8,343 nt of DNA from a virus. A program made the translations under genes and the position numbers. How positions within the stretch are numbered: position 1 is the stretch's first letter; every line of letters begins with the position of its first letter. The notes below the pieces were generated by a model, which made no database searches, was not told the origin of the DNA, and saw only the letters and a program-made list of their open reading frames with translations. Below are positions 1 through 8,343 of this stretch, piece by piece. The stretch lies in the IMG/VR virus record IMGVR_UViG_3300025343_000001; one strand, written 5' to 3'.

Positions 1-127
1 AAGATGCGGTGGCAACTGCAACACCGATGTTTGACACAGGGACCGTGCGATAGAGCGGCGTCTGCACGTTCTATTCGCTGGTTGAACCGAGTCGAAATGA
101 TGTTGATGGCGATTAACATATTCGCTG
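1..127. repeat. Terminal direct repeat, left copy (exact 127-bp match to 8217..8343); signature of a circular molecule linearised with overlap
   Basis: Direct comparison of both window ends: 127/127 identical, and the repeat abuts both window edges. Implied unit length 8,216 bp. Confidence 0.95.
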
Positions 128-137
128 TTGCGAATAT
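118..137. promoter_or_regulatory. Perfect 8-bp inverted repeat (atattcgc / gcgaatat) with 4-nt loop tgtt, in the main non-coding region
   Basis: Stem 118..125 pairs with 130..137. It sits at the start codon (117..119) of the first small Cys-rich ORF in circular coordinates and at the edge of the terminal repeat. Confidence 0.4.
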
Positions 138-350
138 CAAGCCGGTTGATTTGAACCCCTGATTGATCATGTAGAGACCGGGCATCGCGAATAGAAACGC
201 AACTGCAACAGCTCGCATTATCACCCACGAATGTGAAGTCCACGGTTCGACCGGGGAGGTCGAGCGGATCACGACTAGATCGACAAAGCGGTCGATCGGG
301 TTCGTGGGTGTGTCATATTTGGAACTCATAATGTGAGGTTCGAGGGAGGG

Positions 351-752
351 TTACCGAACAGCGACACCCCAGGCGACGACGGTCGCGAGGAACGCGACGA
401 TCGGGCCGAGGTTGCTGCTAGTGTTGATAACGTCGGCGACCTGGGGAACGTACTGGTAGCTCGCGATGATGACCGGGCCGAGAGCGATCGCGACCTGTTC
501 CCACTGCTCGTAACTGTCAAACTGCTTAGTCTCACTGCTGGCGAAGGCAATCGCGTAGGCGCCCAGGGAGATGAATGTGGCGTGTTCGGCGGTGAGCGTG
601 TAGTCGATCCACGTCAGCAGCACCTCCGAGATCCCGCCGAACTGGTAGAGCCCGGCGATGATGAACACGACTGACAGCAGCGCGGGAAGCGTCCGCAGGT
701 GAGTGTAATCCGAGAGGACGTTGCCCATCGAGTTTGAGTAGGACGACGCCAT
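351..752 (-). CDS. Small integral membrane protein, about 4 predicted TM helices (possible virion internal membrane protein, VP3-like)
   Basis: 133-aa ORF with four hydrophobic stretches (LPALLSVVFIIAGLY, ATFISLGAYAIAFA, VAIALGPVIIASY, LGPIVAFLATVVAWGVAV). Its ATG overlaps the upstream stop as ATGA at 752. The membrane-protein call is from sequence; the VP3 analogy rests on gene order only. Confidence 0.6.
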   Translation of the reverse strand: MASSYSNSMGNVLSDYTHLRTLPALLSVVFIIAGLYQFGGISEVLLTWIDYTLTAEHATFISLGAYAIAFASSETKQFDSYEQWEQVAIALGPVIIASYQYVPQVADVINTSSNLGPIVAFLATVVAWGVAVR

Positions 753-1099
753 CAGGAGTCACCCTGAATCTTGCAGAAGGTGGGAAGGTAGTTCCCGCCG
801 TCGTCCAGCTCCTGCTCTTCGACACCACGGGCGATCCAGGCGGTATCACCAAGTTGGAGGTTGCCCTGCTTGAGCGCAGTCTTCACCTCATCTTTGGCGA
901 AATAGTCCACGACACCACGGTCTTTGTCCTTGATTGTGAGGCGGAACCACGGACCGTATTCGCTTTCCCCTTCGGTGATATCGAGGACAAACCCGACCAG
1001 CGTTTCACCAGGAGAAAGTTCGATTGCTTCCGATCCATCCGACGTAGGCGCGGCGGCATCAATGAAGCCGTCCGGCGCGGTTGGCGTTTCACTCGACAT
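752..1099 (-). CDS. Hypothetical small acidic protein (116 aa from the ATG at 1099; the ORF is open back to an ATG at 1183)
   Basis: ORF 752..1183 on the minus strand. The internal ATG at 1099 is preferred because codons upstream of it run through an AT-rich promoter-like island. No recognisable motif. ATGA coupling to the downstream membrane protein gene. Confidence 0.5.
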   Translation of the reverse strand: MSSETPTAPDGFIDAAAPTSDGSEAIELSPGETLVGFVLDITEGESEYGPWFRLTIKDKDRGVVDYFAKDEVKTALKQGNLQLGDTAWIARGVEEQELDDGGNYLPTFCKIQGDS

Positions 1100-1195
1100 T
1101 GCAATTACAAATGTGAACGATTTGCATATAAAGCATGAACCTGTGCGGAGTGAAAGTAAAACCCAGAACCAGCAGCACACCATGATTTATTATAT
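1100..1195 (-). promoter_or_regulatory. AT-rich promoter-like island between the replication gene stop and the small acidic protein gene
   Basis: Only strongly AT-rich stretch in this part of the window. On the minus strand it carries TATA-like elements (ccatataaatataataaatc near 1185..1204, ctttatatgc about 25-35 nt upstream of the ATG at 1099) and a short T-rich run after the upstream stop. Archaeal TATA and leaderless-mRNA logic is established knowledge; the assignment here is inference. Confidence 0.4.
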
Positions 1196-3229
1196 TTATA
1201 TGGTACTTTTGACTGTAGATCGGATTTCGTCGAGCGCGGACGGTGGGAGCATGAGCTGGCCAGCGATGGAGATAGGCGAAGTCTCGCCAGTAGTCTCAAC
1301 CAGCTCCCTAATCGCAACCAGCTCGCGTTCACCGAGTTTCGGTTCGGGTGACGACTGTCTCTCGAATCGGGTAGTGTACCAGTTATCAGACCACTGCTTT
1401 GGTGTCAACCGACGATCTGCGTGAACAGTTTCGCACCACTCGCGAGCGACCAGCTCCGGCGGGGGAACTCGACCGGAGCGAACATCAGATTCGTCGAAGA
1501 ACGACGGGTTTTCCCAGGGTTCCGGCCCTTCGAGGGAAGAGGATAGCGGGAGATACGGAAAGTCGGTTTTATCCATTATCGAGCCGGCTCCCTCAACGAC
1601 GATCGTGCCGTAGGCCGTAGCACCGGGAGATCCGATTTCGGTCACTTCCTCTGTTGAGAGCTGAACAACAGCATCAGGTGACCATTCGGGTTCCCGATCG
1701 AATCCATCTCGTTTCGTTTCAGCAGGTGGAGCTTCAGCAGAATCAGGTATCGGTACCTCTGCTGAAACCGTATGATTCGGAGATTCGGTTTCAGTGGCAC
1801 AGAGGGGACAGGTATCTGGTTCGGCGTGGCCACACCGTCGAAGGCGTGTCTCAGAACCGATCGACCCGGCCGATCGAGCCGAAGGCCACCGTTCTGCAAG
1901 TGTTTGAGGGATCTCATCAGTCTCTTCCTGGTCATCTGCAGATTGAGACAGACGGAAGCGTGCAAGCGACGACTCAGATTGATCGATACCGTGAGGGGAC
2001 CCGCACTCCGCGCATTCGTAGGTGAGTCCCGGTCTTGAAGAACGGACGATTGAATCGCCATGTTCAACAATCTGACCGGTTTGGGAGTCGAGATACTGTT
2101 GTTGACAGGCATCGGCTTTGACAGCCGCCGTTGCCCACCGCGAGCGGCTGTATTTCTGTGTCGTCGTCGACCATTGAGAGGCGGCCCAAATTAAATACTC
2201 GTCCGAACGCTCAAGGAGGTCTTGGTCCGGATCGACGGCGACATATTCGGAGACGTAGGACGCGAAGTCCTGAATCTCGTCGTCTTTGCGCACAGTCACT
2301 GCACGATCCATATCGTGTGCAGACCAAGCGGCGCCCTCACACTCAGAGACGTGTTTCGCGACGACCGGACGGTAAGTCTCTGGGTCAGTTGCGACACTCG
2401 TGGAGATCGCAGCTGCATCGAGGATAACGACGGGATGGCTGTGAGAATAGCCCGTCGCGTCTTCCTGTGGGCCGGGATGGGGTTCGGACTGCCAGTGCCA
2501 GACGTATTCACCGGACGAGAGTCCGAGTTTGTCCTCAAGAACATAGCGAAGCGTTCGTTTCACCGAATTTGAAGAACCTGACCACGCATCACGAATCCCC
2601 CGATCGTGATCAGCTATCGGACGAAACGACCCATCGTCCTCAAGCGACGAGGCGGTCAGACCGAACAAAACCGTAACGGGCTCGGAGAACTCGGGTTCGC
2701 AAGTATGTCCCCTCGGATATTCTCCACCCATAAACTGACGCTCTAAAGCCTTGAGACGTGCGTACTGGGCAGTCTGATACGACGGGGTGAGACTGTTGTC
2801 CATATCGATCAAGAACGATTCGTAGTCGTTCCGGACCTCGGAGCCGCGAGCCATCCGAAGAAACTTGTCGCGATATCCTTCGTACCATTCAAGCATTTCC
2901 TGAATGCCAGCGATCAGCGGGAGAGACCCACGCGAAACGGTTTCCTCGATCTTTTTCTCTTCGGTTTCGCCAATTTCAACGACCCGAGTGACCGTCTCAG
3001 GCTCCTCAAGTACCTCTTCGCGAAGTTTCCGACCGTGGACGGTGGAGATAGGTTCGAAGACGCGATCTCCGTACCGTTCGATAATTCCAGAGATCCGTTC
3101 TTCAACGGTCGGGAGACCGGAAGGACGGAAAGATAGTTCTGGTGACTCAGGGCCTGTATCGGTCGACGCGGGGTTAGTCACGTTGGATAGCCAAGCCGCA
3201 TCCGCATCGGCTTCCCGCGGCGAGCTCAT
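1196..3229 (-). CDS. Putative replication initiation protein, 677 aa, with an HUH-like motif and a Cys4 zinc-ribbon-like region
   Basis: Longest ORF in the window. HSHPVVIL (codons at 2420..2443) fits the HUH motif 2 of rolling-circle Rep proteins. Upstream VLFGLT (about 2654..2671) is a weak motif-1 candidate; downstream tyrosines YRPVVAK and YVSEY (about 2243..2257) are motif-3 candidates. CAEC ... CGH ... CPLC lies at about 1799..2014. No Walker A motif. The function is inferred from motifs only. Confidence 0.5.
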   Translation of the reverse strand: MSSPREADADAAWLSNVTNPASTDTGPESPELSFRPSGLPTVEERISGIIERYGDRVFEPISTVHGRKLREEVLEEPETVTRVVEIGETEEKKIEETVSRGSLPLIAGIQEMLEWYEGYRDKFLRMARGSEVRNDYESFLIDMDNSLTPSYQTAQYARLKALERQFMGGEYPRGHTCEPEFSEPVTVLFGLTASSLEDDGSFRPIADHDRGIRDAWSGSSNSVKRTLRYVLEDKLGLSSGEYVWHWQSEPHPGPQEDATGYSHSHPVVILDAAAISTSVATDPETYRPVVAKHVSECEGAAWSAHDMDRAVTVRKDDEIQDFASYVSEYVAVDPDQDLLERSDEYLIWAASQWSTTTQKYSRSRWATAAVKADACQQQYLDSQTGQIVEHGDSIVRSSRPGLTYECAECGSPHGIDQSESSLARFRLSQSADDQEETDEIPQTLAERWPSARSAGSIGSETRLRRCGHAEPDTCPLCATETESPNHTVSAEVPIPDSAEAPPAETKRDGFDREPEWSPDAVVQLSTEEVTEIGSPGATAYGTIVVEGAGSIMDKTDFPYLPLSSSLEGPEPWENPSFFDESDVRSGRVPPPELVAREWCETVHADRRLTPKQWSDNWYTTRFERQSSPEPKLGERELVAIRELVETTGETSPISIAGQLMLPPSALDEIRSTVKSTI

Positions 3230-3254
3230 CGGTCACCTGCAGTCGACTCCATGT

Positions 3255-3671
3255 TCACAGAAACCGCCCCCGCCCAGCAGACTCGGAGAGGCCCGGCCCA
3301 AGGCCGGGTGCGGCGACAGAGTCGCCGGTCGGGTCAGCCCCCCGTTGAAGGGGGGCTGCTTCCGCCCGTGATTGCGACGGCGATTGGCGCTCGCCGTCGC
3401 TTCCGCCACCGCCACTCGTTTGGCGAGCTTCGGTCGCCTGTGAGCGGTCGGCGCAGCTAGATCCGCGTTCGAGGCAGTCGAGCGCGTGGCCGTATTCGAT
3501 TCCCGTGGTCAGGTTGCTGGTACATCTCTGTCCGCAGACAGGACACCAGAATTCACCCGGGCCGTCAGCGGTGAGATGAGAGTTGGAGTTAGAACGGGAA
3601 CCGAGAGTCGCGTCGCTGGAGAGATCATCTAGATCGGCGTCCTCGACGAAGTCGGAGAGATCGTCGTCCAT
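3255..3671 (-). CDS. Small zinc-finger protein with acidic N-terminus (138 aa from the ATG at 3671; the ORF is open back to 3794)
   Basis: ORF 3255..3794. The ATG at 3671 is preferred because upstream codons cross the AT-rich promoter island and hairpins. Contains CPVCGQRC ... H ... C ... C (CxxC plus His/Cys). N-terminus MDDDLSDFVEDADLDDL is encoded by the 48-bp repeat. Confidence 0.5.
   Translation of the reverse strand: MDDDLSDFVEDADLDDLSSDATLGSRSNSNSHLTADGPGEFWCPVCGQRCTSNLTTGIEYGHALDCLERGSSCADRSQATEARQTSGGGGSDGERQSPSQSRAEAAPLQRGADPTGDSVAAPGLGPGLSESAGRGRFL
3292..3357. promoter_or_regulatory. Cluster of three consecutive perfect GC-rich hairpins just upstream of the replication gene start (candidate origin or operator)
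   Basis: Hairpin 1: cccggcc/ggccggg, 7-bp stem, loop caa (3292..3308). Hairpin 2: cggcgac/gtcgccg, 7-bp stem, loop aga (3311..3327). Hairpin 3: agcccccc/ggggggct, 8-bp stem, loop gttgaa (3336..3357). It overlaps the 3' end of the zinc-finger ORF. Confidence 0.4.
3621..3668. repeat. 48-bp imperfect direct repeat, copy A (43/48 identical to 4903..4950); encodes acidic motif DDDLSDFVEDADLDDL
   Basis: Manual alignment of gagatcAtctagatcggCgtcctcgacgaAgtcggagagAtcgtcgTc against copy B gives 5 mismatches. Contains tctagatcgg. Confidence 0.85.
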
Positions 3672-3735
3672 GACGAAATTAATTCTAGGGAGATACAACA
3701 TATATGTTTTGGTCTGTGATAGCAGTGTTGACACT
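3672..3735 (-). promoter_or_regulatory. AT-rich promoter-like island upstream of the zinc-finger and replication gene pair
   Basis: Minus strand reads aaaacatatatgttgtatctccctagaattaatttcgtc immediately before the ATG at 3671. A TATA-like element sits about 25-35 nt upstream of the start codon, consistent with a leaderless transcript. Confidence 0.4.
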
Positions 3736-3751
3736 AAGGGTATTGTAAGCC

Positions 3752-3812
3752 GCGCGGCCCCCCACAAGGAGGGGCCGCGCAGGCTGCCGCCCACTGAAAA
3801 GGGTGGGTGGGT
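3752..3812 (-). terminator. Hairpin plus T-tract terminator-like structure downstream of the NTPase gene
   Basis: Perfect 10-bp GC stem gcgcggcccc/ggggccgcgc (3752..3761 with 3771..3780, 9-nt loop), followed by a second shorter hairpin cccac/gtggg whose loop on the coding strand contains TTTT. It lies directly after the NTPase stop and before the promoter-like island. Confidence 0.4.
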
Positions 3813-3860
3813 CGGTGAGTGGAGAACCGTGTTTAGATGTGATTATCGGACGAATTATGA

Positions 3861-4817
3861 CTATGCCGGTCCACGGTCGCGAAGCTCATCAAGAAGATCG
3901 GGCCAGTCGAGGTCGAGTGCGAATAGGTCGGGTTCGAGGTTCCAGTCCCACGGCGCCGCGTCATTCGGGTCCGGTTCCGCGGTGGCAGGTTCGAGATTTT
4001 CCAGGGACCCGCCGAACAGCTGATCGGTAGGCTTGTCGGCATCAGCAGGCCAGTTTTCGAAGAAGTCGACTTCCTTCTTTGAGTGTTTGAAGTACGCGGT
4101 CGTGAACAGCCGCTTCAGCTCAGGGTGACAGTCCTTGCCCGTGTGGAACACCGTGCCGAACACGTCGACGTTGACCTTCGCCATCCGCTTGGCGAGCGGC
4201 GAGAATTGCGCCGCGACCTCGTAGGAGTTAGTTCGAGCATCGAAGTGAGTCGACCCCTCATCGATGAAGACGAACTTCGGCCGATCGCGATGTTTGATGC
4301 AGGTGACTGCGAGGTCGTGTGCGCTGGTAACGACCTTGTCCGTGAGCGGCCAGGTCCGCGAGTTAGATATGACAAGGAGATCGTCGACGGTCGCGGAACG
4401 GAGCTCGGCAAGCAACGACATCAGGTTCGTCTTGCCCGTGTTCGGGTTACCGCAGCCACCGATGAACGCGGTCGCGTCATTGTTGGTCATCATGTCGTCG
4501 AGCCGCAGCGGGAGACGCAGCGCCGAGGCGTCGAGGTCCTGCTCAGTGATACCGACCAAATGTGAGAGCAACAAGGAGTTACCAGAATGGATCGCTTCGG
4601 ACGCCTGCCGGGACTGCTGGGTCCGATCGACGAGGGACAGCAGCTCGGAGTGCCCGGACACGTCGGGATCAATATCGTCGAGGAACACAGAGGCAGCCAC
4701 ATCGTCGGGAGCGAGTGCACCCGCACCGGAGGCGAGGTTTCGGTCCGTATCGATGTTCCCGGCCAGCTGTTCGGCGAGCTTCGCCGCGGTCAGCATCCCC
4801 TCATCGGAATCACCCAT
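3861..4817 (-). CDS. P-loop NTPase (Walker A GNPNTGKT, Walker B FVFIDE); candidate virion-associated ATPase
   Basis: 318-aa ORF. Walker A is encoded at 4428..4451 (checked by reverse-complement translation) and Walker B about 50 residues later at about 4257..4274. Start overlaps the upstream gene by 8 nt. Confidence 0.8.
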   Translation of the reverse strand: MGDSDEGMLTAAKLAEQLAGNIDTDRNLASGAGALAPDDVAASVFLDDIDPDVSGHSELLSLVDRTQQSRQASEAIHSGNSLLLSHLVGITEQDLDASALRLPLRLDDMMTNNDATAFIGGCGNPNTGKTNLMSLLAELRSATVDDLLVISNSRTWPLTDKVVTSAHDLAVTCIKHRDRPKFVFIDEGSTHFDARTNSYEVAAQFSPLAKRMAKVNVDVFGTVFHTGKDCHPELKRLFTTAYFKHSKKEVDFFENWPADADKPTDQLFGGSLENLEPATAEPDPNDAAPWDWNLEPDLFALDLDWPDLLDELRDRGPA

Positions 4818-5652
4818 CGGCGGACACCTCCGGTTTCTCTACGTGGCCGTTCCGATCAGTAGCGGGCTCGGGCTCCGAAAAGTCGAACCCGGACTTGTGG
4901 TCGAGATCGTCTAGATCGGAGTCCTCGACGAGGTCGGAGAGGTCGTCGCCGGAGTCGTCAGCCAGTCCGAACTCCTCAAGTTCCTGGTCGATCGCACGGC
5001 CGAGTCCGTCGCCCGAGTCGGGGAGCGAGCCGTCCTCGAACAACTCGACGACGCGCTCAACGGTGTTGCGGGTGGCGCGGCGGACGACCGTGAACGCGGA
5101 GGTTTCGAGGATGAATCCGCGCTGGGCGTCTTCCTGGAGTTGGCCGCGGCATTCGTGGACCGCACGAAGGGCACGGGTAAGCTCCCGATCGTCAAGCGTG
5201 CCGCGCCAGGTTCCTACGACGGTCATGTCTTCTAGGTCGACCTGTTTTGAGACGTAGAGGTTCGGGGACAGTTGGGTGATGTCGTAGGAGGTGTTGATGA
5301 ACCCGTCGTCGTCGAGAACGTCCATTTCGCGGAAGTCCTCGGGCGGGAGTCGGTAGATACCGCCGTCGAGTACGCGGGCATCGAGGTCGATCAGCCAGAC
5401 AAACGAGGGGTTGTAGAGCCAGCTAACGACCTTCGAGCCGGTCCACCAGCCGAGAGGCGTCGCGAACAACGCGGCGAATCCGGCGATGCGCCAGAAGCGG
5501 GGAATCGATGCGTCGAAGCCAGCGACCATCGCGACGATCGTGGTGACGACAGACAGCACGATCAGCTGGGGAACGCGAGCGCGGGCCCAGTCGAGTAGGT
5601 CCAGGTGAGCGGGCTGTTCGTCTCGGGTCGAAGGTGGGTCATGCTGAGTCAT
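4810..5652 (-). CDS. Membrane protein with two N-terminal TM helices and a long acidic C-terminal domain
   Basis: 280-aa ORF with hydrophobic segments VPQLIVLSVVTTIVAMVAGF and IAGFAALFATPLGWWTGSKVVSWL. ATGA start/stop overlap with the upstream gene at 5649..5652. C-terminus carries the acidic DDLSDLVEDSDLDDL motif encoded by the 48-bp repeat. Confidence 0.65.
   Translation of the reverse strand: MTQHDPPSTRDEQPAHLDLLDWARARVPQLIVLSVVTTIVAMVAGFDASIPRFWRIAGFAALFATPLGWWTGSKVVSWLYNPSFVWLIDLDARVLDGGIYRLPPEDFREMDVLDDDGFINTSYDITQLSPNLYVSKQVDLEDMTVVGTWRGTLDDRELTRALRAVHECRGQLQEDAQRGFILETSAFTVVRRATRNTVERVVELFEDGSLPDSGDGLGRAIDQELEEFGLADDSGDDLSDLVEDSDLDDLDHKSGFDFSEPEPATDRNGHVEKPEVSADG
4903..4950. repeat. 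48-bp imperfect direct repeat, copy B; encodes acidic motif DDLSDLVEDSDLDDL near the C-terminus of the 2-TM membrane protein
   Basis: gagatcGtctagatcggAgtcctcgacgaGgtcggagagGtcgtcgCc. Same reading frame and peptide register as copy A, but in a different gene. Confidence 0.85.
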
Positions 5653-6182
5653 GCTATTCTCTCGGGTTGTTCAACGCGACCGTAGACGCGGCGAGCGACG
5701 AGATACAGCGTGGTGAGAGCGACACCGAGCGCGGCGCCGACCCCAGCAGCTTGTGAGTCCGAAGCAGTGAACGGGCCGGCGACGATCGTCGAAGAGGTTT
5801 CGAGCGGGACGCCGTACAGTGTGGTTCCGTCGTCGACGGTGACTCCAGCGCGCCCGTCCGAAGAGACGACACGCATGCGGATTTCGGTCTTCCCATCGAC
5901 GATGAAGCTCTGTCTGTTAAGTTCGCGCGGTTCGCGGAGTACAACGGCCTCAGTGACGGTGACGCGATCGCGGGTGTCAGAGTCGAGGACCAGGACGGCT
6001 TCACCGTTGACGAAGTCAGAGGAACAGAGCCGAAGAGTCGGCGTTATCTCTTGTGAACAGGTTTCGGGCTGTTCCACGTCGGTCGGGTTCTCAACGGTCG
6101 CGTTCGGGGAGTCTTGAGCGGCGACAGATCCGGTCAGGGACACCACTATCACGAGAGCGATTAGGAAAGATCGAGGGAGCAT
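5649..6182 (-). CDS. Secreted type-I membrane protein with signal peptide and C-terminal TM anchor (177 aa from the ATG at 6182; the ORF is open back to 6356)
   Basis: From the ATG at 6182: MLPRSFLIALVIVVSLTGSVAAQDS is signal-peptide-like, and the C-terminus has AAGVGAALGVALTTLYLVARR followed by basic residues. The extension to 6356 encodes an Arg-rich stretch overlapping the spike gene in another frame and is probably not translated. Confidence 0.6.
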   Translation of the reverse strand: MLPRSFLIALVIVVSLTGSVAAQDSPNATVENPTDVEQPETCSQEITPTLRLCSSDFVNGEAVLVLDSDTRDRVTVTEAVVLREPRELNRQSFIVDGKTEIRMRVVSSDGRAGVTVDDGTTLYGVPLETSSTIVAGPFTASDSQAAGVGAALGVALTTLYLVARRVYGRVEQPERIA

Positions 6183-6187
6183 GGTTG

Positions 6188-7957
6188 TTAGTTGTTCAGA
6201 CCGAAGAAGGCGACCACGGCACCGACGCCGAGAGCGACGACTTCTCCGGGCAGTCCGAACATGTCGAGCTGTCCGAGGTCGAGGCCGCCGCCGTTGTTCT
6301 GCGAGTCCTCGAACTTCTCGATCAGGTCTTGATTCTGTTTTTCGAGCTGATCCCACTCCTCCTGTGAAACGTAGTTGTCGTCAGTCTGTGGTTGAGCGTT
6401 GTCGAAGCTCGTAGTCGAAACTTCTTCACCAGATTCAGTGTTCATCAACTTGTCGACGCTAAACGGGCCGTCGAGTTGCAGCGTTTCAAACTGCGTCTCG
6501 GTGGCGGCGGAGACGAAGCGCGCAGATTCAACGTTCGTGATGTTGGTTTCGAGGTCAGCCGAGGCGTCGTAGGACCACGTGCCGTCGCCGTTATCCGTCC
6601 AGTCAACAGCAGGGACAGAGACGGTTTCAGAGGCAGCAGTTGTCACTTCGATTGCGGTTCCCTCATACGGTTCCTCAGTGATCGTTATGGATCCACCATC
6701 GACCGCCGTCTCATAGGCGACCCAGTCGCCCGATACAAGACTCGTGTCGGCCGTGAAGTACACATCACCGACGAAGGTGGACGGGTCGTAGGTCGTACCC
6801 GACTCAATCGGGCCGTCCGACGAGTCGGTTAGCCCGAACGTGCCGGACAGCGTTGCGCCAGTGCTGTTGATAGTGATTGTCGCCTCGCGTTCGAGATCGA
6901 CCGGAATATTAAGCGCAATGAGGTCAGAGATTGCCTGCGAGGTGCCTTCCTCCTCGCTCATCATAGCAGCGCGTTCGCGAGGCGTCACGAGGTCACTGAC
7001 CGAGAGCTCGCCGGACTGAACATCGCCGTAGACGTTCGTAACCCACATCGAGATGCCATCCAAGACGCTTTGGTGCACGGTCGAGATCTCGTCATGGATT
7101 CCCTTCCACGTAGGCCCGTCTAAATATATGACGCTTTCGCCGTCGGGGTTGGGGTTGGAAACGATGACGTTGAAGTTATGGTCGACGTTGTAACCGCGCA
7201 CGTCCAAATTCAGAGGATCAGCAACGGCCCGTGCGCCTTCCACCATACCATTCACGCCCTCTAACTGAAAGGTCGACCCATCGAACAACGTAATGTCTCG
7301 GGTCAATTTGTCCGTGAAATTGCCGAAGTCGCGGTCAACCTTAGTGACCCCTGAATCCAGCACCGCACCCGGACTCAGGTCAGGGTGCGACTGCAGAGTC
7401 GACCGCAGATTGTAGAACTCGCGGACCGACTCATTCCATGTCTTGAGTAGATTCTCCTGAACCGTGCTCAGGTAGGCAGACACAGCAGATTTCGCCGCGG
7501 TTTGAACCTCAGACTCAGAGACTCCCGCGTTCAATTGCTCAATGGCGGCGATCTTGGCGTCGACGTAGGCGGTGTTTTCCACGCCGTCAAGGATGTTCTG
7601 GTTGTCGATGATCGTCGAGGCGTTCGTCGACTTCCGGGTTTTCACAGTCTGATAGACCTGCTGTTTCAGCACGTCACCAGTTAGTCCCTCAGCAGGTGCG
7701 TCAGAGCCGACGACCTCGTATTCACGGAGAGCCCAACCGAGTGCGACAGAGCCGGCGACACCACCGGCAATGATAACCGGAGCGATAGCCTGCCCGTTTT
7801 GGACGGGCGAGCCAGCGACTCGTGATCCGCCGTAGTAGGCCGCGCCAGCGCCAATTGTGGTAGCTCCAACCCGGCCAAGGAATTGTCGTCGATTGATACC
7901 TTCGTGATCTAGATCATCATCTAGATCGGTGTGTTTGTTCTTATTCATTGGAATCAC
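6188..7957 (-). CDS. Envelope/spike-like glycoprotein candidate, 589 aa: twin-arginine signal, large ectodomain, coiled-coil-like segment, C-terminal TM anchor
   Basis: N-terminus has INRRQFLGRVGATTIGAGAA (Tat-type RRxFLG motif plus hydrophobic region). C-terminus LPGEVVALGVGAVVAFFGL is a TM anchor, preceded by the heptad-like QEEWDQLEKQNQDLIEKFE. Five N-x-S/T sequons (NAS, NES, NFT, NST, NIT). The spike function is inferred by analogy to pleolipovirus VP4-type proteins. Confidence 0.7.
   Translation of the reverse strand: MIPMNKNKHTDLDDDLDHEGINRRQFLGRVGATTIGAGAAYYGGSRVAGSPVQNGQAIAPVIIAGGVAGSVALGWALREYEVVGSDAPAEGLTGDVLKQQVYQTVKTRKSTNASTIIDNQNILDGVENTAYVDAKIAAIEQLNAGVSESEVQTAAKSAVSAYLSTVQENLLKTWNESVREFYNLRSTLQSHPDLSPGAVLDSGVTKVDRDFGNFTDKLTRDITLFDGSTFQLEGVNGMVEGARAVADPLNLDVRGYNVDHNFNVIVSNPNPDGESVIYLDGPTWKGIHDEISTVHQSVLDGISMWVTNVYGDVQSGELSVSDLVTPRERAAMMSEEEGTSQAISDLIALNIPVDLEREATITINSTGATLSGTFGLTDSSDGPIESGTTYDPSTFVGDVYFTADTSLVSGDWVAYETAVDGGSITITEEPYEGTAIEVTTAASETVSVPAVDWTDNGDGTWSYDASADLETNITNVESARFVSAATETQFETLQLDGPFSVDKLMNTESGEEVSTTSFDNAQPQTDDNYVSQEEWDQLEKQNQDLIEKFEDSQNNGGGLDLGQLDMFGLPGEVVALGVGAVVAFFGLNN
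7906..7927. repeat. Tandem CTAGATC motifs including a perfect 10-bp palindrome gatctagatc, at the 5' end of the spike gene
   Basis: gatctagatc at 7906..7915 and tctagatcgg at 7920..7929. Encodes HTDLDDDLDH in the spike N-terminal region. Same core motif as the 48-bp repeats. Confidence 0.6.
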
Positions 7958-8135
7958 TTCTATCGTTGTCGTCGATCACGGAGCGGATCGCGTCGGAAAT
8001 ATCTCCAGCACAGTCGACACAGTGATCTCCCGCAACATCGGTGTCGACTCCATTGTGCACTTTAACCACAAGGGCAGGACCAGCCCAGCGCTCGTCGATT
8101 CGGATTTGACAGCAGTCGCAGATTATTGGTCTCAT
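7941..8135 (-). CDS. Small Cys/His-rich protein (64 aa from the ATG at 8135; the ORF is open back to 8165), possible zinc-binding
   Basis: CDCC ... H ... HCVDC pattern. The ATG at 8135 forms an ATGA overlap with the stop of the upstream Cys-rich ORF. Its 3' end overlaps the spike gene start by 17 nt. Confidence 0.35.
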   Translation of the reverse strand: MRPIICDCCQIRIDERWAGPALVVKVHNGVDTDVAGDHCVDCAGDISDAIRSVIDDNDRSDSNE

Positions 8136-8335
8136 TGGCATTTCTCCCCGTTTTCGGAAGAGCATATTGAGCTCCCCGAACAGTGCGGGCAGTCTGTTCC
8201 GTGCATCACTGAGTCAAAGATGCGGTGGCAACTGCAACACCGATGTTTGACACAGGGACCGTGCGATAGAGCGGCGTCTGCACGTTCTATTCGCTGGTTG
8301 AACCGAGTCGAAATGATGTTGATGGCGATTAACAT
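8132..8335 (-). CDS. Small Cys/His-rich protein (67 aa), crossing the terminal-repeat junction
   Basis: CVKHRCCSCH ... H ... CPHCSGSSIC pattern. First gene of the apparent spike operon. No clear TATA box upstream, so support is weak. Confidence 0.3.
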   Translation of the reverse strand: MLIAINIISTRFNQRIERADAALSHGPCVKHRCCSCHRIFDSVMHGTDCPHCSGSSICSSENGEKCQ

Positions 8336-8343
8336 ATTCGCTG
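8217..8343. repeat. Terminal direct repeat, right copy (identical to 1..127)
   Basis: Exact identity to 1..127. The minus-strand ORF 8132..8335 runs through it, so in the circular molecule that ORF begins at coordinate 119. Confidence 0.95.

What the first reader, a model, noticed from the sequence alone, without database searches (positions are those of the whole stretch)
1..8343. Window is probably one complete circular replicon of about 8.2 kb (127-bp terminal redundancy)
Positions 1..127 are identical to 8217..8343 and the repeat touches both window edges. Genes are contiguous across the junction: ORF 8132..8335 runs into the repeat. This is the expected signature of a circular contig reported with overlap. 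The alternative is an integrated element flanked by 127-bp att-like direct repeats, but no integrase or tRNA is present.
Basis: seen in the sequence. Interest (0 to 1): 0.8.

Follow-up and report, generated by a model that had tools for sequence, protein, structure and literature searches.

The report
Complete circular haloarchaeal pleolipovirus genome
The window is one complete 8,216-bp circular genome of an uncultured membrane-vesicle-type virus of salt-loving archaea (genus Alphapleolipovirus). The 127-bp repeat at its ends is the usual overlap an assembler leaves on a circle, so this is a correct but ordinary finding.

Summary
Bases 1-127 equal 8217-8343 exactly, and 127 is the longest prefix that equals a suffix, so the unit is 8,216 bp.

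The circular-replicon reading is supported by three results:
- Closing the circle restores a 137-aa gene across the join, and that gene has full-length homologues in independent metagenomes.
- An independent contig (L004) aligns as one 93.4%-identical block straight through both repeat edges. Other contigs read through one or both edges.
- Only the closed circle gives the canonical alphapleolipovirus gene order (Rep, ORF3-like, internal membrane protein, spike, ORF6-like, ORF7-like, ATPase), with all ten genes on the minus strand.

The replicon is a small alphapleolipovirus with a rolling-circle Rep. Its structural genes are closest to Halorubrum virus Humcor2. Its Rep is closest to the HHPV-1/HHPV-2 type, and is 79% identical to the Rep of a provirus in Halorubrum amylolyticum. 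It has no integrase, no tRNA and no attP-like site, so the att-flanked provirus alternative is rejected.

It is a new species-level member of a well-known family, and interest is low. Side observations:
- a two-gene accessory cassette across the join that sits at other positions in relatives;
- an over-represented GATCTAGAT / D-L-D-D motif near gene ends;
- a conserved CCCACCCACC-plus-hairpin element downstream of the ATPase gene.

The parts
1..127 (.). Terminal redundancy, copy 1 (identical to 8217-8343). This is assembler overlap on a circle. It encodes residues 68-110 of the junction-spanning gene g1.
8217..8343 (.). Terminal redundancy, copy 2. It is redundant sequence; the true genome is 1-8216.
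1..329 (-). g1, 5' part (codons 1 to about 110). The gene continues at 8216..8132. The product is a 137-aa accessory protein with a hydrophobic middle and a Cys-rich C-terminus. It has no Pfam or PHROG family.
8132..8216 (-). g1, 3' part (Cys-rich end and stop codon).
351..752 (-). g2, internal membrane protein (HRPV-1 VP3 / HRPV-6 VP4 homologue). 82% identical to Humcor2.
   Evidence: phrog_5900 E 3e-60; PF26064 VP3 on the L004 homologue
752..1099 (-). g3, ORF3-like protein (HRPV-6 ORF3 / Humcor2 HrrHm2_030). The mechanical ORF extends to 1183, but the homology and the 115-aa gene called in L004 point to the ATG at 1099.
   Evidence: phrog_6009
1125..1132 (-). TATA-like box TTTATATG about 29 nt upstream of the g3 ATG. 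Inferred promoter of the structural operon that runs through the junction.
   Evidence: sequence; inference
1196..3229 (-). g4, rolling-circle replication initiator (HUH-type Rep), 677 aa. Motifs seen: VTVLFGLTAS, YSHSHPVV (H-x-H), YVSEYVAV (Y-x-x-x-Y).
   Evidence: PF07232 E 4.6e-16; phrog_10542 E 5.5e-120
3255..3671 (-). g5, small CxxC (zinc-ribbon-like) protein upstream of Rep. The mechanical ORF extends to 3794. The likely start is the ATG at 3671 (or 3701), behind the TATA-like ACATATATG at 3699-3707. The CxxC core is conserved upstream of Rep in Humcor2 and ZC67 (protein matches), and its coding 9-10-mers recur upstream of Rep in HHPV-1/2 and the Halobaculum plasmid.
3748..3815 (-). Non-coding cis element: CCCACCCACC (3802-3811) followed by two hairpins. 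Candidate origin, terminator or packaging signal. It is conserved at the same place in other alphapleolipoviruses.
3861..4817 (-). g6, putative NTPase (HRPV-1 VP8 homologue). Walker A GNPNTGKT, Walker B FVFIDE. 87% identical to Humcor2.
   Evidence: phrog_1979 E 1.7e-97
4810..5652 (-). g7, core ORF7-like membrane protein.
   Evidence: phrog_5952 E 1e-104
5649..6182 (-). g8, core ORF6-like protein with a signal peptide and a C-terminal anchor. The mechanical ORF extends to 6356. The homology starts at the ATG at 6182.
   Evidence: phrog_1938
6188..7957 (-). g9, spike / fusion protein precursor. It has a twin-arginine signal (RRQFL) and a C-terminal anchor. The likely ATG is at 7948.
   Evidence: phrog_2231 E 5e-114; PDB VP5 6qgi E 6e-200
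7941..8165 (-). g10, 74-aa CxxC accessory protein. With g1 it forms the cassette inserted between the membrane-protein gene and the spike gene.

Best explanation
The window is the complete 8,216-bp circular genome of an uncultured alphapleolipovirus (family Pleolipoviridae). These are enveloped, pleomorphic, non-lytic viruses of halophilic archaea. The host here is probably Halorubrum.

The 127-bp terminal repeat is not a biological feature. It is the k-length overlap a de Bruijn-graph assembler leaves when it prints a cycle as a linear contig.

All ten genes lie on one strand and appear to form two transcription units.
- A short unit runs g5 (CxxC protein) then the HUH rolling-circle Rep.
- A long structural unit runs ORF3-like, internal membrane protein, g1, g10, spike/fusion protein, ORF6-like, ORF7-like, NTPase. 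This unit crosses the window's artificial break.

The rest is inferred. Rep would nick one strand at an origin and replicate the circle by rolling-circle synthesis. The genome, single- or double-stranded (not decidable here), would then be wrapped in host-derived membrane carrying the spike and the internal membrane protein and released without lysis. Lacking an integrase and an att site, the virus should persist as an episome rather than as a provirus.
For: Shown:
- Exact 127-nt prefix equals suffix; unit 8,216 bp.
- The junction ORF g1 becomes 137 aa on the circle, with full-length homologues in other assemblies.
- L004 aligns in one 93.4% HSP across window 2932..1|8216..7827 and has the gene order Rep, ORF3-like, VP3, g1, g10, spike. 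Nine further contigs read through the join.
- All five family core genes are present: phrog_5900, 2231, 1938, 5952, 1979 with E 3e-37 to 5e-114. The spike matches solved VP5 structures at E 6e-200.
- Rep matches PF07232 and phrog_10542, with H-x-H and Y-x-x-x-Y motifs aligned to the Humcor2 Rep.
- The nearest records are all alphapleolipoviruses.
- The order, strand and size match HHPV-1 (8,082 bp) and HHPV-2 (8,176 bp). They also match the closed 8,308-bp episome of cultured Halobaculum magnesiiphilum, whose spike gene crosses that record's own origin.
- No tRNA, integrase or attP.
- k = 127 is the usual top k-mer of SPAdes.

Inferred: the promoters, the rolling-circle mechanism, the episomal lifestyle and the Halorubrum host. 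The host inference rests on structural genes 57-87% identical to Halorubrum viruses and a Rep 79% identical to a Halorubrum amylolyticum provirus.
Against: - No reads, coverage or assembly graph are available, so the closure is inferred from sequence and from relatives, not seen in the sample itself.
- The source contig was not found in IMG/VR, in the JGI metagenome contigs or in the gene-position index, so no alternative permutation of the same strain could be examined.
- A close relative of the Rep module is integrated at tRNA-Pro in a Halorubrum chromosome, so temperate relatives exist.
- No origin nick site could be identified. The haloarchaeal RCR-plasmid nick motif recalled from Zhou et al. 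2008 (TCTCGGC) occurs only at chance frequency.
Confidence: 0.9

Rival explanations
1. The window is an integrated provirus (or another integrated element) bounded by 127-bp att-like direct repeats, with host DNA just outside the window.
For: Pleolipoviruses are often proviruses. Humcor2 integrates at tRNA-Pro. A relative with 79%-identical Rep sits next to tRNA-Pro(CGG) and host genes (ppk, pyrF) in Halorubrum amylolyticum ZC67.
Against: The repeat lies inside a protein-coding gene that is single-copy and uninterrupted in relatives. Viral genes, not host genes, flank it on both sides in the independent contigs that read through it. There is no integrase on either strand, no tRNA and no significant match to the tRNA-Pro att site. 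The known att in this group is 13 bp, not 127. The repeat length equals a standard assembler k-mer.
Confidence: 0.02
2. The molecule is linear or concatemeric: a genome with true direct terminal repeats, a fragment of a rolling-circle concatemer, or tandem integrated copies. In that case the repeat reflects more than one unit rather than a monomeric circle.
For: Rolling-circle replication makes head-to-tail multimers. Sequence alone cannot tell a circle from a tandem array (inference).
Against: All characterised Rep-encoding alphapleolipoviruses have circular genomes of 7-11 kb, and the only linear pleolipoviruses use a protein-primed polymerase, which is absent here. A repeat of exactly 127 nt is what an assembler produces, not a packaging mechanism.
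Confidence: 0.04
3. The replicon is circular but behaves as a plasmid (a pleolipovirus-derived episome such as pHK2) that no longer forms virions.
For: Closed circles with the same gene set are deposited as plasmids: Halobaculum magnesiiphilum unnamed3 (8,308 bp) and Haloferax lucentense pHK2.
Against: All five virion/core genes are intact full-length ORFs with strong family matches. These include a spike with an intact Tat signal and membrane anchor. The deposited 'plasmids' may themselves be viruses. This rival does not contradict the finding that the window is a circular replicon.
Confidence: 0.08
4. The closure is an assembly artefact: a false cycle made by joining strain variants or by a genuine internal repeat of 127 bp or more in a larger molecule.
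For: Many related variants co-occur in hypersaline metagenomes. The g1-g10 region that carries the join is recombinogenic and sits at other positions in some relatives.
Against: The exact arrangement across the join is reproduced by L004 from another sample at 93% identity. The resulting gene set is complete and non-redundant, and the size matches isolates. No gene is duplicated or missing.
Confidence: 0.03

Closest known systems
Halorubrum virus Humcor2 (MW344764), alphapleolipovirus and provirus of Halorubrum coriense
   Same: It is the best nucleotide match: 81.5% over 25% of the genome and 75.7% over 55%. Protein identities are membrane protein 82%, NTPase 87%, ORF6-like 74%, ORF7-like 70%, spike 57%. 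It has the same core gene order, the same CxxC gene upstream of Rep, and a nearly identical CCCACCCACC-hairpin element after the NTPase gene.
   Different: Humcor2 is 11.8 kb and carries a XerC/D-like integrase, an attP matching tRNA-Pro and several reverse-strand genes. The window is 8.2 kb, has all genes on one strand and has neither integrase nor attP. The Rep proteins are only 32% identical. Humcor2 lacks the g1-g10 cassette.
Haloarcula hispanica pleomorphic viruses HHPV-1 (8,082 bp dsDNA) and HHPV-2 (8,176 nt ssDNA)
   Same: They have nearly the same size and the same layout: Rep, ORF2, VP3, VP4, ORF5, ORF6, ORF7. Among viruses, their Rep type is the closest, at 37-38% identity over 72%. 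They share the CCCACCCACC element.
   Different: Their structural genes are much more distant, with only short nucleotide matches. They have a reverse-strand ORF8 where the window has g5. They have no g1-g10 cassette: VP3 and VP4 overlap or abut.
HRPV-2 and HRPV-6 (Halorubrum pleomorphic viruses, ssDNA alphapleolipoviruses)
   Same: The structural module is 72% identical at nucleotide level over about 42% of the genome. The spike is 57% identical to HRPV-6 VP5 and matches the solved VP5 fusion-protein structures 6qgi, 6j7v and 6qgl.
   Different: Their Rep belongs to a different lineage, with no tblastn match and 16-17% identity in the alignment. They carry reverse-strand ORFs.
Halobaculum magnesiiphilum NBRC 109044 'plasmid unnamed3' (CP081961, 8,308 bp, closed circle)
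   Same: It has the same circular order and strand for spike, ORF6-like, ORF7-like, NTPase, Rep, the annotated CDS at the ORF3 position and the membrane protein. Rep is 39.5% identical. It is a closed episome from a cultured strain, which shows that such 8-kb circles exist in cells.
   Different: It comes from a different host genus. Protein identities are only 25-57%. It has no g1-g10 cassette: 39 nt separate the membrane-protein and spike genes.

Membership tests
Pleolipoviridae (ICTV 2022 profile) | Conserved cluster of five genes (HRPV-1 genes 3, 4, 8 and ORFs 6, 7): internal membrane protein, spike, putative NTPase and two ORFs | tested here: met
   g2, g9, g6, g8 and g7 match phrog_5900, 2231, 1979, 1938 and 5952 (E 3e-37 to 5e-114). 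tblastn identities to HRPV-1, HRPV-6 and Humcor2 are. The spike matches PDB VP5.
Pleolipoviridae | Core genes collinear in the family order | tested here: met
   The order membrane protein, (g1, g10), spike, ORF6-like, ORF7-like, NTPase is obtained on the closed circle. It is the same as in HRPV-1, HRPV-6, Humcor2 and HHPV-1/2.
Pleolipoviridae | Enveloped pleomorphic virion of 40-70 nm; non-lytic persistent infection of Halobacteria | not testable with these tools
   This needs isolation or electron microscopy. Only the acidic proteome, the Tat signal and the relatives point to a haloarchaeal host.
Genus Alphapleolipovirus | [quoted passage not shown] | tested here: met
   g4 matches PF07232 at 59 bits against a cutoff of 23 and phrog_10542 'replication protein' at E 5.5e-120. 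It is 37-38% identical to the HHPV-1/2 Rep. H-x-H and Y-x-x-x-Y motifs are seen.
Genus Alphapleolipovirus | Circular ssDNA or dsDNA genome of about 7-11 kb | tested here: met
   The 8,216-bp unit has a terminal overlap and read-through in relatives. Circularity is inferred, not measured. Strandedness is not testable.
Genus Alphapleolipovirus | Monophyly in whole-genome phylogenomic analysis | not tested
   No tree was built. The only evidence is that the closest database hits are alphapleolipoviruses, with short spike-only matches to beta-type HRPV-3 and HRPV-9.
New species within the genus (ICTV: more than 5% nucleotide difference) | More than 5% nucleotide divergence from every classified member | tested here: met
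   The best deposited match is 81.5% identical over 25% of the genome. The nearest metagenomic contig, L004, is 93.4% identical over 3.3 kb.
Temperate (integrating) pleolipoviruses such as Humcor2 and SNJ2 | Self-encoded tyrosine integrase plus an attP matching a host tRNA or gene | tested here: not met
   No integrase family matched any ORF on either strand. There is no tRNA. The best match to tRNA-Pro is 10 exact nt, or 22 nt with mismatches and a gap.
HUH endonuclease superfamily (Rep) | Motif II (H-hydrophobic-H metal site) and motif III catalytic Tyr; nicking at a cognate origin | tested here: inconclusive
   The motifs YSHSHPVV and YVSEYVAV align with YTHIHVGV and YLAAYMG of the Humcor2 Rep. 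There is no solved homologue. No origin nick site was identified. Catalysis cannot be tested here.

The most novel reading that the evidence does not exclude
The region that happens to carry the assembly join is a recombination hot spot. A two-gene accessory cassette (g1 membrane/Cys-rich protein plus g10 CxxC protein), unknown from any isolate, moves between positions in closely related pleolipovirus genomes and other haloarchaeal mobile elements. The breakpoints fall at a short, strongly over-represented palindromic motif, (CC)GATCT/AGAT, which is read in frame as D-L-D-D. The motif would act as a module-boundary sequence, comparable to the boundary sequences of lambdoid phages, or would be used through Rep-mediated illegitimate recombination. 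Separately, the CCCACCCACC-hairpin element after the NTPase gene, shared by genomes with three different Rep lineages, could be the long-sought replication or packaging signal of alphapleolipoviruses.
Probability: 0.25. Interest if true: 0.5.

Novelty: new member of a known kind. Interest (0 to 1): 0.22.

Why it matters
It adds one complete, integrase-free, single-strand-coded 8.2-kb genome to a family for which 184 non-redundant genomes had been compiled by 2023, so on its own it changes little. It is a clean example of the Rep-module and structural-module mosaicism already proposed for pleolipoviruses. The side observations are cheap leads for people studying how these very small viruses exchange genes and where they start replication. 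Those leads are the mobile g1-g10 cassette, the GATCTAGAT motif and the conserved element after the NTPase gene.

Tried and rejected
- Looked for the source contig or another permutation of the same strain. Exact-protein look-ups of g2 and g10 found nothing. A 30-mer of the repeat was absent from IMG/VR. A junction-specific pattern (20 nt + N127 + 20 nt) was absent from the JGI metagenome contigs. A 33-mer of the repeat found ten related contigs but not the source.
- The search for related loci in IMG/VR with g1, g2 and Rep found no relatives.
- Tested the haloarchaeal RCR-plasmid nick motif TCTCGGC, recalled from Zhou et al. 2008. The paper is not held in the library. The motif has 3 hits against 2.5 expected, all inside genes, so it was rejected as an origin marker.
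- Tested whether the 17-nt repeat bounds the cassette in L013. The full 17-mer is absent there, and only a 6-nt CGATCT is shared at the breakpoint. The recombination-site idea therefore remains a hypothesis.
- The Rep-to-g3 intergenic region does not fold better than shuffled sequence (z = 0.1).
- The bacterial sigma-70 promoter and terminator scan was at chance level and is not relevant to archaea.
- Plus-strand ORFs of 113-231 aa have no Pfam or PHROG match and overlap well-supported minus-strand genes, so they were rejected as genes.
- The Rep has no sequence relative among solved structures.

Full report
**1. The observation**

The first 127 bases of the window are identical to the last 127. 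127 is also the longest prefix that equals a suffix, so the non-redundant unit is 8,216 bp (family D1). Chance cannot explain a 127-nt exact match placed exactly at both edges. The window is 57.8% G+C. It contains no tRNA.

**2. Gene content**

All credible genes lie on the minus strand. Listed in the direction of transcription on the closed circle:
- g5, a CxxC protein (3255-3671; the mechanical ORF runs to 3794).
- g4, Rep (1196-3229).
- g3, ORF3-like (752-1099).
- g2, internal membrane protein (351-752).
- g1 (329..1 joined to 8216..8132).
- g10 (7941-8165).
- g9, spike (6188-7957).
- g8, ORF6-like (5649-6182).
- g7, ORF7-like (4810-5652).
- g6, NTPase (3861-4817).

PHROG profiles match seven of the ten with E-values from 2e-18 to 5e-120. 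Rep also passes the Pfam PF07232 threshold. The spike matches the solved VP5 fusion proteins of HRPV-2/HRPV-6 (6qgi, 6j7v, 6qgl) at E = 6e-200 over almost its whole length. It also has a twin-arginine signal (RRQFL) and a C-terminal anchor. The proteins are strongly acidic, as in haloarchaea. Ten plus-strand ORFs of 113-231 aa have no family match and overlap these genes.

**3. Is it a circle?**

Four lines of evidence agree.

On the circle it is a 137-aa gene starting at 329, and the repeat encodes its residues 68-110. This full-length protein exists in other assemblies: P0001-P0003, 84-89% identity, 95-100% coverage.

Second, contig L004 from a different JGI sample aligns as one HSP, 93.4% identical over 3,333 nt, to window 2932..1 followed directly by 8216..7827. 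It carries Rep, ORF3-like, VP3, g1, g10 and the start of the spike. In a close relative, then, the 127-bp stretch is single-copy and interior, and it is flanked by exactly the sequences that circular closure predicts. L013 and L014 also cross both repeat edges in one block. L005/L006/L011, L008-L010 and L020 cross both edges in two collinear blocks.

Third, the family gene order (Rep, ORF3-like, membrane protein, spike, ORF6-like, ORF7-like, NTPase) is found in HRPV-1, HRPV-6, Humcor2, HHPV-1 and HHPV-2. It is also found in the closed 8,308-bp episome of cultured Halobaculum magnesiiphilum. In the window this order appears only when the ends are joined.

Fourth, 127 is the customary largest k-mer of SPAdes/metaSPAdes runs. 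It is established knowledge that de Bruijn assemblers print a cycle with a k-length overlap. The field accepts such terminal repeats as the completeness criterion for pleolipovirus genomes.

**4. The provirus alternative**

This alternative deserved a real test, because relatives do integrate. Humcor2 is a provirus at tRNA-Pro with a 13-bp att site and a XerC/D-like integrase.

The one hit in the species-representative genomes, Halorubrum amylolyticum ZC67 scaffold36, shows the same pattern. Host genes (aminotransferase, polyphosphate kinase, methyltransferase, OMP decarboxylase) are followed by tRNA-Pro(CGG). Next come a Humcor2-like left end, a g5-like CxxC gene, a Rep 79% identical to g4 and a g3 homologue 80% identical. 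The scaffold ends there.

The window differs on every relevant point:
- It has no integrase on either strand.
- It has no tRNA.
- Its best match to the tRNA-Pro sequence is 10 exact nt, or 22 nt with mismatches and a gap.
- Its 127-bp repeat lies inside a coding gene rather than at a virus-host boundary.

I reject this alternative (about 2%). A concatemer or tandem array cannot be formally excluded from sequence alone, but it would still imply the same 8,216-bp unit.

**5. What it is and how it probably works**

It is an alphapleolipovirus by the ICTV criteria: the five-gene core cluster plus an RCR Rep, and a circular genome in the 7-11 kb range.

The genome is a mosaic.
- The structural module is closest to Halorubrum viruses. 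Against Humcor2 the identities are membrane protein 82%, NTPase 87%, ORF6-like 74%, ORF7-like 70% and spike 57%.
- Rep is only 32% identical to Humcor2's. It is 37-38% identical to HHPV-1/HHPV-2, 39.5% to the Halobaculum episome, and more distantly related to small haloarchaeal RCR plasmids.
- Rep carries VTVLFGLTAS, YSHSHPVV (H-x-H) and YVSEYVAV (Y-x-x-x-Y). These align with the corresponding Humcor2 motifs.

Two TATA-like boxes are visible: ACATATATG at 3699-3707 and TTTATATG at 1125-1132. They sit about 30 nt upstream of the ATGs at 3671 (g5) and 1099 (g3). From this I infer two leaderless transcription units. The second one runs through the artificial break in the window.

Rolling-circle replication, budding in host membrane and an obligately episomal lifestyle are inferred from the family, not shown. 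A Halorubrum host is likewise inferred from the relatives. The best deposited nucleotide match is 81.5% over 25% of the genome, so the genome would be a new species under the 5% rule.

**6. Things noticed beyond the finding**

(a) Accessory cassette. Between the membrane-protein gene and the spike gene, isolates have a short overlap or at most 129 nt. The window has about 600 nt encoding g1 and g10. Neither has a Pfam or PHROG family. g1 is absent from all deposited phage and plasmid records but occurs in 41 metagenomic protein clusters. The cassette sits in at least three contexts:
- Upstream of the spike, downstream of the VP3 gene: directly in L004, after two further genes in L005/L006. L020 shows g1, g10 and spike.
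- Inside the CxxC gene upstream of Rep, flanked by an 81-nt, 98%-identical direct repeat: L013 and L014.
- Next to a 208-aa tyrosine integrase: L007 and L008, with cassette fragments in L009 and L010.

L018 has an extra 1.2 kb of accessory genes between g10 and the spike. In many relatives the g1 homologue stops at about 106 aa without the Cys-rich end, and in L013 that end lies in another reading frame. In the window and in P0001-P0003 the two parts are fused.

(b) Breakpoint motif. Whatever gene follows g10 begins MNKNKHTDL: the spike here, a CxxC protein in L013, an AbrB-like ORF in L018. The breakpoint therefore lies just after ...ACACCGATCT. GATCTAGAT occurs 4 times at 3 sites in the window against 0.04 expected. 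A 17-nt family (3452, 3624, 4906, 7916) and a 46-nt, 91%-identical pair (3621-3666 and 4903-4948) place this motif, read as D-L-D-D, at the N-terminus of g5, the C-terminus of g7 and the N-terminus of the spike. Whether it acts as a peptide or as a DNA recombination site is unresolved. The full 17-mer is not present at the L013 breakpoints.

(c) Conserved cis element. The 10-mer CCCACCCACC (3802-3811, gene-sense strand) is followed by two hairpins; the fold of 3720-3820 gives -29.6 kcal/mol and z = -5.4. The element lies in the non-coding gap after the NTPase gene. The same 10-mer occurs downstream of the NTPase gene in Humcor2, HHPV-1, HHPV-2, the Halobaculum episome and HRPV-6, where it is tandemly duplicated. 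HRPV-1 has one-mismatch versions there. That covers genomes with three different Rep lineages. In most of them the CCCAC pairs with a downstream GTGGG. No paper in the searchable library contains this 10-mer together with 'pleolipovirus'. It is a candidate origin, single-strand origin, terminator or packaging signal.

**7. Verdict**

Both the observation and the interpretation are correct. The object is ordinary: an assembler-closed, complete genome of a new species-level member of a well-studied virus family, for which 184 non-redundant genomes had already been compiled by 2023. Interest is 0.22. The side observations are the only part with some novelty potential.

Noticed in passing
window 7941-8216 + 1-329 (minus strand); L004, L005, L006, L013, L014, L007-L010, L018, L020: A two-gene accessory cassette (g1: 137-aa membrane/Cys-rich protein; g10: 74-aa CxxC protein) fills about 600 nt between the membrane-protein and spike genes, where isolates have at most 129 nt. 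g1 is absent from all deposited phage and plasmid records but is common in metagenomes. In close relatives the cassette occupies other positions: inside the CxxC gene upstream of Rep, flanked by an 81-nt 98% direct repeat in L013; next to an integrase in L007 and L008. L018 has 1.2 kb of extra genes after it.
   Followed up: partly
window 3452-3468, 3621-3666, 4903-4948, 7905-7932: GATCTAGAT is strongly over-represented (4 matches against 0.04 expected). It belongs to a 17-nt repeat family and a 46-nt 91% repeat pair. It is always in frame as D-L-D-D, at the N-terminus of g5, the C-terminus of g7 and the N-terminus of the spike. Cassette breakpoints in relatives fall right after ...CCGATCT, and the ORF after g10 always starts MNKNKHTDL. 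Whether this is a peptide motif or a DNA recombination site is unresolved.
   Followed up: partly
window 3748-3815 (minus strand); Humcor2 8990, HHPV-1 7413, HHPV-2 7388, CP081961 3633, HRPV-6 7856/7868, HRPV-1 6496-6509: CCCACCCACC followed by stable hairpins (z = -5.4 in the window) lies in the non-coding gap after the NTPase gene. The motif recurs downstream of the NTPase gene in six other alphapleolipovirus-type genomes with three different Rep lineages. It is a candidate origin, terminator or packaging signal. It was not found in the searchable literature.
   Followed up: partly
L021 (Halorubrum amylolyticum ZC67 scaffold36, NZ_SDJP01000036.1) 9464-12713: A related pleolipovirus provirus is integrated at tRNA-Pro(CGG) beside host genes. 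It has a Humcor2-like left end, a g5-like CxxC gene, a Rep 79% identical to the window's and a g3 homologue 80% identical. The scaffold ends inside the provirus. This suggests Halorubrum as the host genus.
   Followed up: yes
window 1-329 + 8132-8216 (g1) versus L013 2440-2897 and P0004-P0032: In the window and in P0001-P0003 the N-terminal membrane part and the Cys-rich C-terminal part of g1 are one ORF. Most other homologues stop at about 106 aa without the Cys-rich end, and in L013 that end lies in another reading frame. This could be a gene fusion or split, or possibly a frameshift. The fusion point lies inside the 127-bp repeat.
   Followed up: partly
window 3255-3671 (g5); Humcor2 65-471; HHPV-1, HHPV-2, CP081961 upstream of Rep: A small CxxC (EFWCPxCG...EYGHALDC) coding segment lies upstream of Rep in Humcor2 and ZC67 (protein matches). 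Its coding 9-10-mers also recur upstream of Rep in HHPV-1, HHPV-2 and the Halobaculum episome. It appears to be unannotated on that strand in HHPV-1/2.
   Followed up: partly
NZ_CP081961.1 (L022), whole record: The 8,308-bp 'plasmid unnamed3' of Halobaculum magnesiiphilum NBRC 109044 encodes a full pleolipovirus gene set: spike, ORF6-like, ORF7-like, NTPase, Rep, a CDS at the ORF3 position and the membrane protein. It is probably a pleolipovirus episome annotated only as hypothetical proteins.
   Followed up: partly
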